Assembly: GCF_011045215.1 (NCBI RefSeq)
Contig: NZ_CP049201.1
DNA from: Escherichia coli
Lineage (GTDB): Bacteria; Pseudomonadota; Gammaproteobacteria; Enterobacterales; Enterobacteriaceae
Reading direction: 5' to 3' (one strand)
Length of the DNA stretch: 64,000 nucleotides
The position numbers and the translations under genes are program-made. Under the pieces are notes generated by a model. The model did no database searches and was not told where the DNA came from. It saw only the letters and a program-made list of their open reading frames with translations. Of the stretch, positions 8,107 through 60,959 are shown one piece after another; position 1 is the first letter of the stretch; each line of letters begins with the position of its first letter.

Positions 8107-8194
8107 GGTGAGGTGTCCGAGTGGCTGAAGGAGCACGCCTGGAAAGTGTGTATACGGCAACGTATCGGGGGTTCGAATCCCCCCCTCACCGCCA
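8107..8194 (+). tRNA. serW: tRNA-Ser (anticodon GGA), 88 nt, long variable arm
   Basis: GGTGAGGTGTCCGAGTGGCTGAAGGAGCACGCCTGGAAAGTGTGTATACGGCAACGTATCGGGGGTTCGAATCCCCCCCTCACCGCCA; position directly after infA identifies serW. Confidence 0.92.
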
Positions 8195-55356: not shown

Positions 55357-57096
55357 TCAGAAATCCCGGAACAGATTAAAACCGGCTGTCACATCACTCG
55401 TCATAAAACCCGCCGGTTTTGAAAACGGACGACCGATGAAAACGTCATAATCCGTACTGAACAGTTGCCCCCTCAGCCCCACAACACCACCGGCCAGATG
55501 ACGTCCCACCAGGTATTCACTGCCGGCTCCCCCCACCTCGCCGTAATCCATTCCCAGATATAACGCCTGCTCCGGCAGTGGCGTACGCCAGGCCAGGTCG
55601 TTGCGGATATACCAGCCGTTACTGGCATTCAGCGTTCGCTCCCCGTCAAAACCACGAACCGTCCAGCGGTTACCGATGGCAAACTGTTCCTGTGGGGTCA
55701 GCGGGGTATTGCTCAGCTGGCGCTGATACCGGAAGGAATAACTGAAGGGCTGCCCTGCAAGGGTAAAGGGCAGATTAAAGGATGCATTCAACTGCAGGAT
55801 CTTACTGAGCGCCGTTGCCTCACCGAACGTTTCTTCCGGCGCCGGCTGTGCACCAAACCAGCGGGTTCCCCGTTGCCAGCTGACACCAGCATCCAGTGTG
55901 GCCTGAGAAATATAATGACGGTGCTGCAGCCCAAGTCGCCAGGCCGCTGTCTGCCGGCGCTGCACCTGGATTTCCGTATCATTAATGTAGTTACGCGACC
56001 TGCGGGCCTGAACATCGTAGGTCAGCACCGTTTTCTGCGTCCCGTTACGGTGCAGTACCCGGCTCAGCTGCATACCCAGATTCTGACTCTCGCCACTGTA
56101 CTGGTAATCCTCAACCGCACCAGCTACCGTCTGATGGTAATCGTAATCACTGGCGGTGACGGAAAACTGCCAGTAGCCGAAAGGCACAGAGTAATGGGCC
56201 GTGTAGTTTTTACTGCCCTTACCCCCGTAATGTGGAAAATTACGGGTGGCAGAAACATACAGCAGGTCACTCAGGGAAAAAGGATTATCCAGAGAAAATG
56301 TTATACCACCGAGATAACGCCCTGTGCTGCGGGTACCTGAATCATCAAGCGAAAACCCCAGTCGCCAGTATTTGTCCTGTTTGCGGGTAATAAGAATGTC
56401 ACTTTCCCCTGGCTGCTCACCGGGTACAATTTCCATATCAGCCTGCACACCCGGCAGTCGTTGCATATTCTCCAGCCCCTGCTCAATGTCCCGTAAATCC
56501 AGCAGAGAACCTTCGTGTGCCGGGAATGAGGAATACAACTGAATATAGTCATCACTGTCCGGTGTCAGACGCACATGTCGCACAACACCGGGAATAACAA
56601 CCAGCCGGAGGATACCGCTTTTTAAATCCTGCGAAGGTGCCAGAACACGGGTGGTGACATAACCATGATCGACCAGACGGTTCTGCAATGTACTCATCAG
56701 CAGATTAATTCCTTTCGCCCCCAGGCAATGCCCGACCGCCCCGTTGGCGATTTTTTGTAAAGGCAGCCAGTGTGGTAACGCATCAGCCCCCTCCAGTTCC
56801 GTCTGTTTAATCTGAAAACAGGGCGTTTCAACAGGAAAATTAATCTTACGGGCAAAAGAGCCAGGTGCAGAAAGGCGAACATCAGGGGCTGAAGGCGTCA
56901 GTTGTTGCTCAAGGGCTTCCTGACGCTGCTGCTGAATGATAAATGCATTATCTCCGCTACGCCGGACATCCGCGGCCTGAAGAGATAAAGGCGATAATAA
57001 AACAGACATCAGTGTCAGTGACAGCAAGGACGGACAGCGCCGGAATACGCTTTGTTCCTCAGCCCTCTCGTTCCTGCAACATAATTTTCCAGTCAA
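55357..57096 (-). CDS. cdiB: CdiB, TpsB/Omp85-family outer-membrane transporter (579 aa)
   Basis: Track ORF; signal peptide at the internal start [15 protein letters not shown] (~57009); C-terminal beta-barrel ending ...AGFNLFRDF. Confidence 0.88.
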
Positions 57097-57303
57097 ACGA
57101 AAAACCTTTTATTCATGTCATACCAACAATCACCAGCCTCCTGACGATACCTCCCACCATGTTTTGCGATGGTACGCTACCGCCCTTCCGGTATTTACCC
57201 GCATCAACCGGTACCAGAATGTTGAGTAATAAATTTGTCAACTCTGAATTGGTTTAATTTTGATCATTATAGAATGAAGATCTGAAAATTCTCAATATTG
57301 CAG

Positions 57304-57321
57304 ACATATCGATCGATATGT
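57304..57321. promoter_or_regulatory. Perfect 18-bp palindrome containing GATC, ~210-300 bp upstream of cdiB
   Basis: ACATATCGATCGATATGT is self-complementary; function not established. Confidence 0.3.
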
Positions 57322-57687
57322 AGTTATCACGTAGTTATTTATTCCAACTAATATCGCAAAAGCAGCATATTGCAAAACTTATAACCACGGAGAACAAAAA
57401 ACGACAGAAAATTATTCCGTAAGATGCTTCAAATACAGCCAGTCAACACTGAAAAAAGTGATTTTTGATTAAAATCATTGAAGTTTATGCAGTACAGAAT
57501 CTGAGCGGTTCTCAGCGAAAGTCAGAAGAAAGGGAGGTGAGGTAAAAGGCAGAAATCAGAGTGACAGGAATGCACAAAAAGCAAAAAAAAATCAACAAAA
57601 CAATAAATTAACATACCCCGAAAAAGCATCCGCAACGTACCGGGTAATAACAACAATATCGTGTAAAACAACATTGTTCCGGAAGTT

Positions 57688-57879
57688 ATGTCTGAAGATA
57701 TCCCGTTACCCAAAGTCGGTCAGCGATACAGAGACGATCATGGTGCGCTTGTCACCGTAACCAGTGTTGAGGAAACCCGGGTGGTATTTATGCGGGACGG
57801 CTATCCACATCCCTGTATGCGGCCAATGTACAACTTTCCAGGAAAATTCAAACCCGAACCCCGGGAAGAAACAGAATAA
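57688..57879 (+). CDS. Small hypothetical protein (63 aa), possibly DUF4222-like
   Basis: Track ORF; an antisense ORF 57706..57981(-) overlaps it and is judged less protein-like; family name from memory. Confidence 0.35.
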   Translation: MSEDIPLPKVGQRYRDDHGALVTVTSVEETRVVFMRDGYPHPCMRPMYNFPGKFKPEPREETE

Positions 57880-57931
57880 AACGAAATTCCTGCCGGCAAT
57901 CACACTGCCTGATGGCAGCATAATCCACTTT

Positions 57932-58165
57932 TTAATTCTCATCCCCGAAGACAAGCCCAGAAAACCACTCCGGGTGTTCACTGTATGCCGTGTTCAGCGC
58001 ATCCCAGGAAACGTTTATATAAAAGCTGTCCTGCAATCTGCGGGTAACAACTTCTGCCAGGCGATTCCGGTTATCCGCCAGTCCGGCATAACCTCTCTCT
58101 GCCAGCCACTCATTCAGTTCATGTTCCAGAGACAGATTGATAATATCGTAATCGGACCTTGCCAT
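57932..58165 (-). CDS. Small hypothetical protein (77 aa)
   Basis: Track ORF; no motif recognised. Confidence 0.4.
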   Translation of the reverse strand: MARSDYDIINLSLEHELNEWLAERGYAGLADNRNRLAEVVTRRLQDSFYINVSWDALNTAYSEHPEWFSGLVFGDEN

Positions 58166-58251
58166 TCCCGTTTCCTTAGCACATGTTTTCAGGCACGGGT
58201 AAAAGTATAAAGAATGTCATACTGCTGCCAGAGCCCCCCCTGATGGTCGTA

Positions 58252-58911
58252 TCAGAGATGGTATGCCGGCACTTTGCGGGTTGTTCCCGTCAGGTTATCG
58301 TGCACCTCCACATTCGTTGTCACTACCGGCATTCCGCTCTGTCTTAATCTCAGGACATCAGCCGCAATACGCTGACTGCCAGACCAGAACAGCCCGTCCA
58401 GTGCGGTCACCAGTAAACCTGCTTCCAGCGCATACTTCAGCCGTTCACGGGACGCTTTCACTTCCCGGGCAACCTGCTGATATGGCAATGATGTGTTTTC
58501 ATTCCCAACCACGCGACGAATACGGTGAGACAGATGATACCGGAATGTATCTGGCACACCCGAAAGGCTGGCCTTCAGGCTGTACACGCAGCCAAAGCGT
58601 TTATCGTTAAACACCACATTTTTCTGGCTGATGCCCCATTCTTCACGCAGCGCGGCAATCAATTGCGGTGTCCGGGTAAGCAGCAAGCGAAAAGGCAGTT
58701 CAAAACTGGTGACGTAATCCACATTCAGCAGTGCAATACGCAGCCGTTCTTCTGGCCCGGCCTCTGTCTGCCGACACTCCTCCAGAACATCCTGCCACTG
58801 CCGGCGAAGACGGAGGGATTCGTTCCGTTCTGTAAAACAGTATTTATCCGCCAGATAGTCAACTCGTGTACGCATACTGAAAAGAATTCCGTATAAAAAT
58901 TCATCTGACAA
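58252..58911 (-). CDS. Hypothetical protein (219 aa)
   Basis: Track ORF; no motif recognised. Confidence 0.5.
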   Translation of the reverse strand: MSDEFLYGILFSMRTRVDYLADKYCFTERNESLRLRRQWQDVLEECRQTEAGPEERLRIALLNVDYVTSFELPFRLLLTRTPQLIAALREEWGISQKNVVFNDKRFGCVYSLKASLSGVPDTFRYHLSHRIRRVVGNENTSLPYQQVAREVKASRERLKYALEAGLLVTALDGLFWSGSQRIAADVLRLRQSGMPVVTTNVEVHDNLTGTTRKVPAYHL

Positions 58912-59932
58912 AACTTTATCAGTCCATAAAAATCAACGGAAGCACAGATGATTCACTCGTCCATTACCAACGGATTTTGCCAATAACCCTGGCGTTGACA
59001 ACGGGTAACATAAAAGACAAAGACTGAACAACTGTTTTTAACGGCGATACTGCATGATTTCATCGCCATCCGTCACCGTCATATCCACCAGATGAAACAA
59101 CTCTGTGCAGGTTTTATCCGCAATTTCCGGATTATCAAAACACGTCGGTCAGTTCATGTTGTACGGGGACGGGCTGCGCTCCCCATGACAGAACATTATC
59201 GATATCACCAGCATACGTGCCACTCAAAGTGTTACGGCATCGTACGGCGTGGTCATGTTCTTCTCTTTTTCCTGTTCACAATAACCTGCTTAACGGTCAG
59301 AAGGCATTTTCACCAGGATTATATTCACCTGTACAACCATGTTCAGCCATGACCGCTGATAAGTGAACATCCGGAGTATATTATTCTGCCGCTGTTGAAT
59401 TGCCAGTAAGCTCCCGGTCCTTTGCTCCGGCACACTGTTTTTGTTCCTGGCTCTCTGTCTGAGGTGAAACCTTCCAGGTATGTCGCCCCATTTTTGTTCG
59501 TCTCCATTTTTTTAAGAAGTGCTCAAGTGAAAAACTTTTTACCTCTCCGGGAGTTGTCGTATTTGCTGATATTGTTCGTTTGTTTAAAGAACCTGCTGGT
59601 CTTGCCATTAATATTACCTGCTGATTGCTTCACGCCCGGGCTCCTCGCACTGTGCGCGGGTTATTGTTTCGTTTTCAGTCCCGGGGGCGCCAGGACTCTG
59701 TTTGCAGACCATAACGGCCTGACCTGTACTGTTTCTTCGGCTCTTTGATGCCCGTTTACGCCATTTGTTCCCTGCCCCTCTGTCTGATAACGAATACGCT
59801 CACTACGCACAGCACTGAACAATACCGGCAACAGCATGTCTTACATGACATTCGCTGTGCCATCCACCGGAAAACATTTTCAGATACCGGATGAGGTACC
59901 ACTTCCATTAACAGCACGAGGTAACAATACTG

Positions 59933-60409
59933 ATGGTAACGCTGGCCATTAACCGTAAACCGCAGGGTATTTTCAGTAAGTCACCGGCAACGCCGCTGCA
60001 GGATAAAACGAACACAGTACACAACGAGAAGCCTCTTCGGGTGAGGAATCAAACACCATGGCGACATATGACAAAACGCCAGCGCAAAAACCGTAAGCGT
60101 ATAAATCGTCTTGTGGAACTCTGGCCTGAGTTATTCAACCGGGAAAAACCAAAACCGCTTAAAGTGGGGATACCTGACGACCTGATACAGGATATCGCCA
60201 TCAGAAAACTGGCGTTTGGCGCAGGTACATTACGCGCGGCAGTGGCGTCTTATGTGCAGTCTCCGCGCTATTACCGTACGTTAATGGCAGGTGGCGCCCG
60301 TTACGACCTGAAGGGGCAACCGTGCGGAGAGGTGACACCACATGAACAGAAAGAGGCAGAGAGCCGTTTAATGATGCTGAATGACCGACGAAAAGCCAGA
60401 AAGCGCTGA
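59933..60409 (+). CDS. FinO/ProQ-family RNA-binding-domain protein
   Basis: Track ORF; LVELWPELFNREKPKPLKVGIPDDLIQDIAIRKL...GARYDLKGQPCGEVTPHE matches the FinO/ProQ fold signature; basic N-terminus; start may be the internal MTKRQRKNRKR (~60068). Confidence 0.65.
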   Translation: MVTLAINRKPQGIFSKSPATPLQDKTNTVHNEKPLRVRNQTPWRHMTKRQRKNRKRINRLVELWPELFNREKPKPLKVGIPDDLIQDIAIRKLAFGAGTLRAAVASYVQSPRYYRTLMAGGARYDLKGQPCGEVTPHEQKEAESRLMMLNDRRKARKR

Positions 60410-60410
60410 T

Positions 60411-60959
60411 TCACTGAGCTGTAATCAATGTACAGCGCTGTACCGGACGATGGATAATGGCGGTCACAACCGGTAACCCCAGAGACAATGCGACTGTTTT
60501 TAACGCAACATACTGGCCGGATGTATCACCCCGGGCAACCCGAAAACACTTTTCCACCCGGCATTGTCCGCCAGCGCTTATCACCTGCCAGGTCTGTTGT
60601 AGTAAATCCACCAGTTGTGAACATTCTTCATCAACTGTCACACTGGCTCGCGGATGGCAAATGCTCGTCTGGCTGAGCAGCAACAGGCATCGCATTGTTG
60701 CTCCTCCATGTTGTTCCCGCAACCAGCGTAATACCAGCGGCGATGATGGACTGGCCGTGTGATTACGCTCAGTAATACGTTCGTGCACCTGTCGATAAAA
60801 GGAAGTACAGAATGTCTGAACCTGTTGTCCGTTGATGTTTCCTTCAGCCGAATGGAGCGTGAAGTGGACTGCCAGCAGACGCGGCCAGTGGTCCACCGCC
60901 TGCTGAACAAAACGCCGGATGTCTCCCGGCTCTGAAAGTAATACTTCGGTTATTTGCAC
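60411..60959 (-). CDS. Hypothetical protein (182 aa)
   Basis: Track ORF; no motif recognised. Confidence 0.45.
   Translation of the reverse strand: MQITEVLLSEPGDIRRFVQQAVDHWPRLLAVHFTLHSAEGNINGQQVQTFCTSFYRQVHERITERNHTASPSSPLVLRWLREQHGGATMRCLLLLSQTSICHPRASVTVDEECSQLVDLLQQTWQVISAGGQCRVEKCFRVARGDTSGQYVALKTVALSLGLPVVTAIIHRPVQRCTLITAQ

What the first reader, a model, noticed from the sequence alone, without database searches (positions are those of the whole stretch)
57688..58911. Cluster of small uncharacterised genes between cdiB and the FinO-like gene
Three ORFs (63 aa plus-strand; 77 and 219 aa minus-strand) have no motif I recognise. The 63-aa ORF overlaps an antisense 91-aa ORF, so strand assignment is uncertain.
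Basis: seen in the sequence. Interest (0 to 1): 0.3.

Follow-up and report, generated by a model that had tools for sequence, protein, structure and literature searches.

The report
Three small genes upstream of weapon promoter
The three small ORFs are real, conserved E. coli genes (a DUF4222 protein, a 77-residue orphan and a winged-helix DNA-binding protein) that always sit just upstream of one particular iron- and methylation-controlled promoter, which drives a type VI secretion system in some strains and, here, a contact-dependent toxin operon, so they are plausible but untested regulators of it.

Summary
The ORFs lie at 57688-57879 (+, 63 aa), 57932-58165 (-, 77 aa) and 58252-58911 (-, 219 aa from TTG; more likely 207 aa from ATG 58875).

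- **63-aa ORF:** a DUF4222 protein (Pfam E 3e-23), which settles the strand. Its dN/dS is 0.15, against 1.17 for the antisense 91-aa frame, which is broken in relatives.
- **219-aa ORF:** an NCBIfam "ECs1377 family" protein (E 1e-94). It has an unmatched N-terminal domain and a C-terminal winged helix.
- **77-aa ORF:** a conserved (dN/dS 0.23) helical orphan with no family or fold match.

The trio is common in E. coli and RefSeq annotates it the same way. In EAEC 042 it lies directly upstream of the Sci-1 type VI secretion cluster. The window carries the published Psci1 Fur/Dam-switch promoter (three GATC in 53 nt, Fur box over the -10) between the trio and cdiB. In other genera, ECs1377 homologues next to T6SS or two-partner-secretion operons are always upstream and co-oriented, but most homologues have neither nearby.

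Best reading: a regulatory leader module for the adjacent weapon operon. This is inferred, not shown. The genes are ordinary; the context is moderately interesting.

The parts
57688..57879 (+). DUF4222 gene (63 aa), a distant relative of the regulator RgdR. It is transcribed divergently from the cdiB operon.
   Evidence: Pfam PF13973, E 3.1e-23, covering 52/53 profile positions. PHROG 1343/285. PGAP annotates it as a DUF4222 protein in L001, L002, L091, L092 and L097. dN/dS 0.15. 38% identity to RgdR/ECs_1581, E 7e-13.
57706..57981 (-). Antisense 91-aa ORF; not a gene.
   Evidence: No family hit. Variable sites peak at its codon position 1. dN/dS 1.17. Three stops and a frameshift in L002, and 12 nt shorter in L092.
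57932..58165 (-). orf77: a 77-aa conserved helical protein with no family assignment.
58252..58875 (-). ECs1377-family gene (207 aa; the open frame runs on to TTG 58911). It has an unmatched N-terminal alpha/beta domain and a C-terminal winged helix-turn-helix.
57241..57492 (-). Conserved promoter element upstream of cdiB, homologous to the EAEC sci1 (T6SS) promoter. Core at 57253-57314: -35 TTGAGA, -10 TATAAT, three GATC sites and a Fur-like box.
   Evidence: Best sigma-70 match in the region, 11/12. GATC at 57311, 57279 and 57262, spanning 53 nt; Fur-like box 13/19 over the -10. 74% identity over 235 nt to the EAEC 042 Psci1 region, with all three GATC sites aligned. 78% identity to the tssB upstream region of RM14721. 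The published features match (PMC3145626).
55357..57096 (-). tpsB/cdiB, first gene of the downstream cargo operon (cdiB, lysine acyltransferase, 3078-aa VENN-containing CdiA); context only.
   Evidence: ORFs. PGAP names in L002: ShlB/FhaC/HecB family, toxin-activating lysine-acyltransferase, hemagglutinin repeat protein. Gene content matches the class IV cdiBCAI type (PMC8510554).
60411..60959 (-). 182-aa hypothetical gene ('h510' family), a frequent companion of the ECs1377 gene. Here a roughly 1.5-kb segment carrying the ProQ/FinO gene separates the two.
   Evidence: 83% DNA identity to L091 7340-7938, where the gene abuts ECs1377. The family recurs beside ECs1377 homologues in Serratia, Yokenella and Citrobacter loci (cluster c59). 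No Pfam or NCBIfam hit.

Best explanation
**Shown.** The region holds three real, separately conserved protein genes.
- A DUF4222 protein on the + strand.
- orf77 and an ECs1377-family winged-helix DNA-binding protein in tandem on the - strand.

In Escherichia, these three genes and the adjoining roughly 250-bp Psci1-type promoter form one unit placed in front of alternative 'weapon' operons: the Sci-1 type VI secretion cluster (as in EAEC 042) or, in this window, a cdiB-cdiC-cdiA contact-dependent inhibition operon.

**Inferred mechanism.**
- The ECs1377-family protein binds DNA through its C-terminal winged helix. The site would be in or near the conserved region upstream of the -35 of that promoter. 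It would thereby modulate transcription of the downstream operon, on top of the known Fur/Dam switch.
- The highly conserved N-terminal domain would serve oligomerisation or signal/partner binding.
- The DUF4222 protein (family of RgdR, which activates type III secretion genes and represses motility by an unknown route) and orf77 would be small accessory modulators added in the Escherichia lineage.
For: **The genes are real and identified.**

**ECs1377 looks like a DNA-binding protein.**
- HTH_39 hits 23 of 23 family members.
- Invariant basic residues lie on the predicted recognition helix, QRIAADVLRLRK.

**The trio sits at this promoter in Escherichia.**
- In EAEC 042 the trio is directly upstream of sciH/tssB. 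The published 596-bp Psci1 fragment (nt 4852298-4852892) reaches about 71 nt into the DUF4222 gene.
- The same trio fronts tssB in RM14721.
- It fronts POTRA/tpsB genes here and in L001, L002 and L091.
- The shared promoter is conserved up to the -10, and homology ends within a few bases 3' of it.

**Counts in 5426 complete E. coli genomes.**
- 204 carry the tssB-linked junction.
- 826 carry the tpsB-linked junction.

**Outside Escherichia.**
- ECs1377 homologues of 57-71% identity lie 0.4-3 kb upstream of T6SS core genes, on the same strand. This holds in Kosakonia, Citrobacter, Yokenella, Serratia and Enterobacter.
- Others lie upstream of TPS operons, on the same strand, in Serratia sp. DD3 and Citrobacter sp. 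18056.
- In all 10 of the 80 species-level loci where such genes are within 10 kb, they are downstream and co-oriented, never upstream or opposite.
- These cases are scattered over the family tree.

**Precedents.** RovC is a T6SS activator encoded beside its cluster (PMC7535981). RgdR is a DUF4222 regulator of a secretion system (PMC10877973).
Against: - No expression, binding or genetic data exist for any of the three genes.
- About 70 of the 80 species-level ECs1377 loci have no T6SS or TPS gene within 10 kb, and their neighbours are ordinary, variable chromosomal genes.
- In Citrobacter and Kosakonia the gene stays intact at the same site in species where the adjacent T6SS is absent. Its selection therefore does not depend on a neighbouring cluster.
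- No binding motif shared across genera was found. The E. coli promoter element is undetectable by nhmmer outside Escherichia, and only the core -35/GATC-II/-10 is recognisable in Kosakonia.
- The mini-Tn10 screen of about 20,000 EAEC clones for derepression of Psci1-lacZ recovered only fur. This argues against a strong repressor role, but that screen could not find activators.
- The DUF4222 protein lacks the RGD motif required for RgdR activity.
- Adjacency could simply reflect the point where cargo is inserted into a conserved island backbone.
Confidence: 0.42

Rival explanations
1. The three genes are conserved passengers of the island backbone or of a chromosomal hot spot. The ECs1377-family protein is a DNA-binding protein with targets elsewhere (or a nucleoid or xenogeneic-silencing partner), and T6SS or CDI operons are simply inserted next to it. 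On this reading the module does not regulate the adjacent operon.
For: - Most family members have no weapon locus nearby, and their neighbourhoods are extremely variable.
- The gene persists where the neighbouring T6SS has been lost.
- In E. coli it lies beside typical island backbone genes: AlpA, inovirus Gp2/YagK-type, ProQ/FinO.
- Several species carry 2-3 paralogues.
- The fur-only result of the EAEC screen.
Against: - The strict downstream, same-strand relation to T6SS/TPS in at least seven unrelated contexts is hard to get by chance. A rough estimate is (1/4)^7, uncorrected for phylogeny.
- In Kosakonia and Citrobacter there is no island backbone, yet the gene is still the immediate upstream neighbour of tssB.
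- In Escherichia the trio and the promoter travel together while the cargo changes exactly at the transcription start.
Confidence: 0.38
2. orf77 and the ECs1377 gene, or the whole trio, form a toxin-antitoxin, addiction or anti-phage defence cassette typical of genomic islands.
For: The genes are small, tightly spaced and island-borne. Many truncated orf77 alleles exist in databases, as is often seen for addiction modules.
Against: - No PADLOC hit for any of the genes.
- No Pfam toxin or antitoxin domain.
- Only one phage record carries an ECs1377 homologue.
- ECs1377 occurs alone, without orf77 or DUF4222, in all non-Escherichia loci.
- Distant orf77 relatives stand alone in unrelated contexts.
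Confidence: 0.06
3. The ORFs are decaying or non-functional remnants, or the real gene in the overlap is the antisense 91-aa ORF.
For: - The ECs1377 gene is frameshifted in strain C5, whose copy is 98% identical to the window over 57333-58876.
- Many truncated orf77 variants exist, including a common 62-aa in-frame deletion allele.
Against: - All three genes are intact in the window and in nearly all loci compared, with dN/dS of 0.15-0.23.
- ECs1377 retains 57-71% identity across Enterobacterales genera, with long invariant blocks.
- The antisense frame has dN/dS 1.17 and is disrupted in relatives.
Confidence: 0.04

Closest known systems
ECs1377 family (NCBIfam NF052300); for example the EC042_RS24155 gene upstream of the EAEC 042 Sci-1 T6SS
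   Same: Full-length equivalog match (315 bits). The E. coli family copies compared are 82-95% identical. The same gene order, ECs1377 - orf77 - DUF4222(opposite strand) - promoter, is seen in EAEC 042, RM14721 and O157:H7.
   Different: In the window the cargo behind the promoter is a cdiBCA operon, not a T6SS. The family itself has no described function: the only paper mentioning ECs1377 is a CGH survey, and the likely EC042 locus tags appear in no paper.
RgdR (ECs1581, OI-51/Sp7 of E. coli O157:H7), the characterised DUF4222 protein
   Same: Both contain a single DUF4222 domain with similar scores (81.5 and 82 bits). They are 38% identical over 61 residues. Both are small proteins on horizontally acquired elements, encoded near or acting on secretion-system genes.
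   Different: The window protein is 63 aa against 99 aa. It lacks RgdR's N- and C-terminal extensions and the RGD motif needed for T3SS activation; the aligned residues are V-G-Q. RgdR lies next to a primase gene in a satellite prophage, not next to a T6SS or CDI promoter.
RovC of Yersinia pseudotuberculosis (PDB 6XZ5), a T6SS4-specific activator encoded beside its cluster
   Same: Functional analogy only. [quoted passage not shown]
Psci1, the Fur/Dam epigenetic-switch promoter of the EAEC sci1 T6SS (Brunet et al. 2011, PMC3145626; Taillefer et al. 2026, PMC13262931)
   Same: The element at window 57241-57492 is homologous (74% over 235 nt). It keeps the -35, the -10, three GATC sites within 53 nt (as ATCGAT, TCAGA and TGATCA sites) and a 13/19 Fur box over the -10.
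   Different: Here it precedes cdiB rather than tssB. Fur binding and methylation state were not tested for this copy. It is a neighbour of the finding, not one of the three ORFs.
Winged-helix transcription factors (Pfam HTH_39; MarR/ArsR/TFE-type folds)
   Different: The window protein scores below the Pfam gathering threshold (15.4 against 21.3 bits). The N-terminal roughly 125-residue domain, which is the most conserved part, matches nothing in the PDB.

Membership tests
DUF4222 (Pfam PF13973) | Match to the family HMM above the gathering score, covering the domain | tested here: met
   81.5 bits against a cut-off of 27, E 3.1e-23, profile positions 1-52 of 53.
RgdR-type T3SS/motility regulator | DUF4222 domain | tested here: met
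   Both proteins hit PF13973. BLASTP gives 38% identity, E 7e-13.
RgdR-type T3SS/motility regulator | Conserved RGD tripeptide (R20-G21-D22), required for T3SS activation | tested here: not met
   RgdR ...FMRGDIYRD... aligns with window ...PKVGQRYRD..., so the residues are V-G-Q. Other alleles have I/V-N-Q. The requirement for RGD is stated in PMC10877973.
RgdR-type T3SS/motility regulator | Activates LEE/ler transcription and represses motility | not testable with these tools
   Needs genetics.
ECs1377 family (NCBIfam NF052300, equivalog) | Score above the curated cut-off over the whole model | tested here: met
   315.3 bits against 190, model positions 1-190 of 190. PGAP names orthologues 'ECs1377 family protein'.
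Winged helix-turn-helix DNA-binding proteins (HTH_39, PF14090) | Three-helix bundle plus beta-hairpin wing, recognisable by sequence or fold | tested here: met
Winged helix-turn-helix DNA-binding proteins (HTH_39, PF14090) | Binds DNA | not testable with these tools
   Needs EMSA or ChIP.
RovC-type T6SS activators | Sequence or fold homology to RovC (PDB 6XZ5) | tested here: not met
RovC-type T6SS activators | Encoded adjacent to the T6SS cluster it controls | tested here: inconclusive
   Adjacent and co-oriented in EAEC 042, RM14721, Kosakonia, Citrobacter, Serratia and Yokenella. Not adjacent in about 70 of 80 species-level loci, and here the neighbour is a CDI operon.
Psci1-type Fur/Dam switch promoter (neighbouring element) | Three GATC sites within 53 nt flanking the -35 and overlapping the 3' edge of the -10 | tested here: met
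   GATC at 57311, 57279 and 57262, with -35 at 57295-57290 and -10 at 57271-57266. They align site for site with EAEC 042.
Psci1-type Fur/Dam switch promoter (neighbouring element) | Fur box overlapping the -10 (13/19 to consensus) | tested here: met
   TATAATGATCAAAATTAAA, 13/19, at 57271-57253. The published fur1 box is also 13/19.
Psci1-type Fur/Dam switch promoter (neighbouring element) | Fur binding, and Fur-dependent protection of GATC-I from Dam | not testable with these tools
   Needs FURTA/EMSA and methylation-sensitive digestion or nanopore 6mA calls.
Toxin-antitoxin or anti-phage defence cassette | Similarity to known defence or TA components | tested here: not met
   No PADLOC hit for the three proteins. 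No relevant Pfam domain.

The most novel reading that the evidence does not exclude
The ECs1377-family protein, possibly tuned by orf77 and the DUF4222 protein, is the missing dedicated transcription factor of Sci-1-type T6SS promoters. Together with the Fur/Dam-switch promoter it forms a portable 'regulator plus promoter' cassette that Escherichia has re-used in front of two unrelated contact-dependent weapons (T6SS and class IV-like CDI). Both weapons would then be co-ordinated by iron, methylation state and this factor, and show the same ON/OFF heterogeneity.
Probability: 0.2. Interest if true: 0.65.

Novelty: new member of a known kind. Interest (0 to 1): 0.38.

Why it matters
Taken one by one, the three genes are ordinary catalogued 'hypotheticals' present in a large share of E. 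coli genomes, so the finding as written is low value.

The context is what matters. They are the immediate upstream neighbours of one of the best-studied T6SS promoters (EAEC Psci1). The held literature attributes that promoter's ON/OFF heterogeneity to Fur and Dam alone. None of the papers found in the held library mentions these genes in relation to it.

If the winged-helix protein acts at this promoter, it would add a dedicated regulator to that model. The shared promoter would also imply that a contact-dependent inhibition operon and a T6SS answer to the same iron and methylation signals. Both ideas can be tested directly with existing EAEC reporters.

Tried and rejected
1. **RovC homology for ECs1377.** Rejected: no sequence or profile hit to 6XZ5, and no fold hit among the top matches.
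2. **Weak phmmer hit of ECs1377 to the CyaA adenylate cyclase domain** (E 0.036, 48 residues). Not reproduced by the family profile, so treated as chance.
3. **PDB sequence searches for DUF4222 and orf77.** Nothing found.
5. **A DUF3606 link for orf77.** One distant relative hits 20 residues at E 0.017, below threshold and not shared by the other members. Not accepted.
6. **A universal conserved neighbour of ECs1377 across 80 species-level loci.** None found. The commonest neighbour clusters are ordinary genes (LysR regulator, aminotransferase, ABC ATPase) present in at most 20 loci.
7. **The Psci1 element outside Escherichia.** nhmmer finds none. Only a core resemblance remains in Kosakonia. 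No candidate ECs1377 operator could be defined.
8. **orf77- or DUF4222-like small ORFs between ECs1377 and tssB in Kosakonia and Citrobacter.** Absent.
9. **PADLOC, Rfam and phage-database searches of the region.** Negative or nearly so.
10. **My first count of T6SS-linked junctions** (866 genomes). It was confounded by TPS-linked loci that share the promoter and spacer. It is replaced by 204 genomes from a junction-specific query.
11. **A first dN/dS value of about 1.1 for ECs1377**. This was an artefact of a gap column shifting the frame; the corrected value is 0.18.

Full report
**Observation.**

- 57688-57879 (+, 63 aa)
- 57706-57981 (-, 91 aa, antisense to the first)
- 57932-58165 (-, 77 aa)
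- 58252-58911 (-, 219 aa from a TTG)

On one side lies a two-partner-secretion operon on the minus strand:
- TpsB/CdiB at 55357-57096.
- A 175-aa protein that PGAP calls toxin-activating lysine-acyltransferase in the orthologous locus.
- A 3078-aa haemagglutinin-repeat protein with a VENN motif.

On the other side lies a ProQ/FinO gene at 59933-60409.

**Identity of the three genes.**

*63-aa protein.* It is a complete DUF4222 domain (Pfam E 3.1e-23, 81.5 bits against a cut-off of 27).

*219-aa ORF.*
- It matches the NCBIfam equivalog 'ECs1377 family protein' over the whole model (E 1.1e-94, 315 bits against 190).
- It also matches PHROG 24243.
- PGAP and the family alignment start it at ATG 58875, giving 207 aa.
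- Homology with E. albertii and strain C5 stops exactly at that codon, so the 12 extra codons are unlikely to be translated.

*77-aa protein.*
- It has no hit in Pfam, NCBIfam, PHROGs, PADLOC or the PDB.
- The word-index search found 141 homologues, almost all from E. coli, many of them truncated or frameshifted.
- An exhaustive HMMER scan of 1.84 billion representatives added only about five 78-81 aa relatives at 29-34% identity. Two of these were traced, and they stand alone in unrelated chromosomal contexts.

**Are they real genes, and which strand?**

I compared the window with six E. coli/E. albertii copies that are about 91-98% identical in DNA over the aligned stretch.
- *DUF4222 frame:* variable sites fall 9/4/20 by codon position, and dN/dS is 0.15.
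- *Antisense 91-aa frame:* variable sites fall 25/10/12, and dN/dS is 1.17. It carries three stops in RM11911 (L002) and is 12 nt shorter in RM14721 (L092).
- *orf77:* 5/6/15 and dN/dS 0.23. It is intact in all seven.
- *ECs1377:* 17/16/35 and dN/dS 0.18. It is frameshifted only in strain C5.
- *148-aa + strand ORF at 57764-58210:* broken in every relative compared.

RefSeq annotates exactly these three genes in every related locus fetched.

**Structure.**

*ECs1377.*
- The AlphaFold2 model from a 23-sequence alignment is confident (pLDDT 91.5, pTM 0.83).
- Pfam HTH_39 weakly hits all 23 members (best E 3.2e-6).
- The first roughly 125 residues contain the most conserved stretch of the family, ERLRIALLNVDYVTSFELPFRLLL. 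They match nothing.

**Distribution and context.**

Parts of the 1.9-kb region match in 2312 of 5426 complete E. coli genomes. The DUF4222-orf77 segment is at least 80% covered in 1369 of them.

Context in individual strains:
- *O157:H7:* the trio is part of the SpLE1-type island next to a truncated POTRA gene.
- *RM14721:* the same trio lies directly upstream of a Sci-1-type T6SS cluster: tssB, tssC, tssK, tssL, an OmpA-family gene, hcp, tssH, vgrG, tle1/tli1-EAEC.
- *EAEC 042:* the same arrangement. RS24155 (ECs1377-like), RS24160 (orf77) and RS24165 (DUF4222, opposite strand) sit 506 bp before tssB/sciH.

The published 596-bp Psci1 reporter fragment (nt 4852298-4852892) therefore includes the first roughly 71 nt of the DUF4222 gene.

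**The shared promoter.**

BLAST and alignment show that window 57250-57443 is homologous to the tssB upstream region of RM14721 (78%). It is also homologous to the EAEC 042 Psci1 region (74% over 235 nt, with a much more similar core).

The window copy has these features:
- The best sigma-70 match in the region: TTGAGA-18-TATAAT at 57295-57266, 11/12.
- Three GATC sites at 57311, 57279 and 57262, spanning exactly 53 nt. They lie within ATCGAT, TCAGA and TGATCA, which are the BspDI, Hpy188I and BclI sites used in the original study.
- A 13/19 Fur-like box over the -10.

All of this agrees with the description of Psci1 (PMC3145626).

Homology between T6SS-linked and TPS-linked loci ends a few bases 3' of the -10. 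The cargo is therefore exchanged at about the transcription start, while the promoter and the trio stay. Junction-specific searches give 204 genomes with the tssB-linked junction and 826 with the POTRA/tpsB-linked junction. The paper that characterised a class IV cdiBCAI locus mentions only a 'predicted Pcdi promoter'.

**Beyond Escherichia.**

A scan of one genome per species returned 80 loci encoding ECs1377 homologues (57-71% identity apart from the E. albertii copy), in many Enterobacterales genera. None has orf77 or DUF4222 beside it.

*Where T6SS or TPS genes are nearby:*
- Immediate, co-oriented T6SS clusters follow the gene in Citrobacter and Kosakonia.
- The same holds in K. sacchari, Serratia ureilytica, S. 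oryzae, Yokenella and two Enterobacter species.
- TPS operons follow it in Serratia sp. DD3 and Citrobacter sp. 18056, and at 7.7 kb in Pluralibacter.
- In every case the weapon genes are downstream and on the same strand.
- These cases are scattered over the family tree.

*Where they are not:*
- About 70 loci have neither system within 10 kb.
- The neighbours are variable, ordinary genes.
- In Citrobacter and Kosakonia the gene persists at the same site where the T6SS is absent.

**Interpretation.**

*Shown:*
- The region holds three genuine genes: two of named families and one orphan.
- The + strand is the coding strand in the overlap.
- The trio plus a Psci1-type promoter forms a conserved unit preceding either a T6SS or a CDI/TPS operon.

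*Inferred:*
- The winged-helix ECs1377 protein is a transcription factor acting at or near that promoter.
- The two small proteins act as accessory modulators.
- By analogy, RovC is a T6SS activator encoded beside its cluster, and RgdR is a DUF4222 regulator of type III secretion and motility.
- ECs1377 is not a RovC homologue.
- The DUF4222 protein is only 38% identical to RgdR and lacks its essential RGD motif.

The main rival is nearly as likely: these are backbone or hot-spot passengers whose function is independent of the adjacent operon. The many 'orphan' family members support it. So does the EAEC transposon screen, which recovered only fur, although that screen could not detect activators. 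Defence/TA and pseudogene readings are poorly supported.

**Verdict.**

The finding is confirmed as an observation, and most of its uncertainty is removed. As genes they are already catalogued and common, so their intrinsic novelty is low. The link to the Sci-1 promoter, and the promoter's re-use in front of a CDI operon, is a concrete and testable lead of moderate interest.

Noticed in passing
window 57241-57492 (core 57253-57314), minus strand: The cdiB-cdiC-cdiA operon is preceded by a homologue of the EAEC sci1 T6SS promoter. The copy keeps the -35 and -10, three GATC sites in 53 nt and a 13/19 Fur box over the -10. A contact-dependent inhibition operon may therefore be under the same Fur/Dam epigenetic switch as a T6SS. 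Homology with T6SS-linked loci ends a few bases 3' of the -10. The class IV cdiBCAI paper I read does not mention this.
   Followed up: partly
window 60411-60959 (-): A 182-aa hypothetical gene ('h510' family, no Pfam or NCBIfam hit) accompanies ECs1377 genes in E. coli O157:H7 and RM14721, where it abuts them. It also does so in Serratia, Yokenella and Citrobacter loci. In the window a roughly 1.5-kb segment (58989-60495) carrying the ProQ/FinO gene separates the two.
   Followed up: partly
window 57444-57675: The roughly 200-bp spacer between the promoter element and the DUF4222 start codon exists in two unrelated versions among E. coli islands. The window, RM11911 and C5 have one version. 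O157, FXCREC035, RM14721 and EAEC 042 have the other. DUF4222 may therefore have different promoters in different islands. The simple scan found no sigma-70-like site here.
   Followed up: no
window 57113-57241 (-): A 42-aa ORF lies in the 5' leader between the promoter and cdiB. PGAP annotates it as a hypothetical protein in related loci (L001, L002). It has no family hit and could be a leader peptide or spurious.
   Followed up: no
window 8107-8194 (+): This tRNA-Ser(GGA) is the only tRNA in the window. As I recall, serW and serX are the attachment sites of the O157 SpLE1/TAI islands that carry ECs1377, so the window probably spans an SpLE1-like island. This was not checked further.
   Followed up: no
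L015, L029, L050, L083 (ECs1377 loci in Citrobacter sp. MGH106, Trabulsiella, Kluyvera, an unclassified Enterobacteriaceae): In four species a very large repeat-rich predicted surface protein (607-1461 aa ORF segments, looking autotransporter/adhesin-like by eye) lies next to the ECs1377 homologue. In L083 it is immediately downstream and co-oriented. This hints that the family associates with secreted or surface systems more generally. No domain search was run on it.
   Followed up: no
P0194 and relatives (E. coli orf77 alleles): A 62-aa allele of orf77 with an in-frame 15-residue deletion (residues ERGYAGLADNRNRLA missing) is seen on 944 contigs. Part of the protein is therefore dispensable, or this allele is a common degenerate form.
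   Followed up: no
L065 (Pluralibacter MAG), downstream of the ECs1377 homologue: By eye, a 498-aa and a 1095-aa protein following the gene resemble JetA/JetC of a Wadjet-type SMC defence system. No domain search was run on them. If they are, this would be another horizontally acquired cargo at the same position.
   Followed up: no
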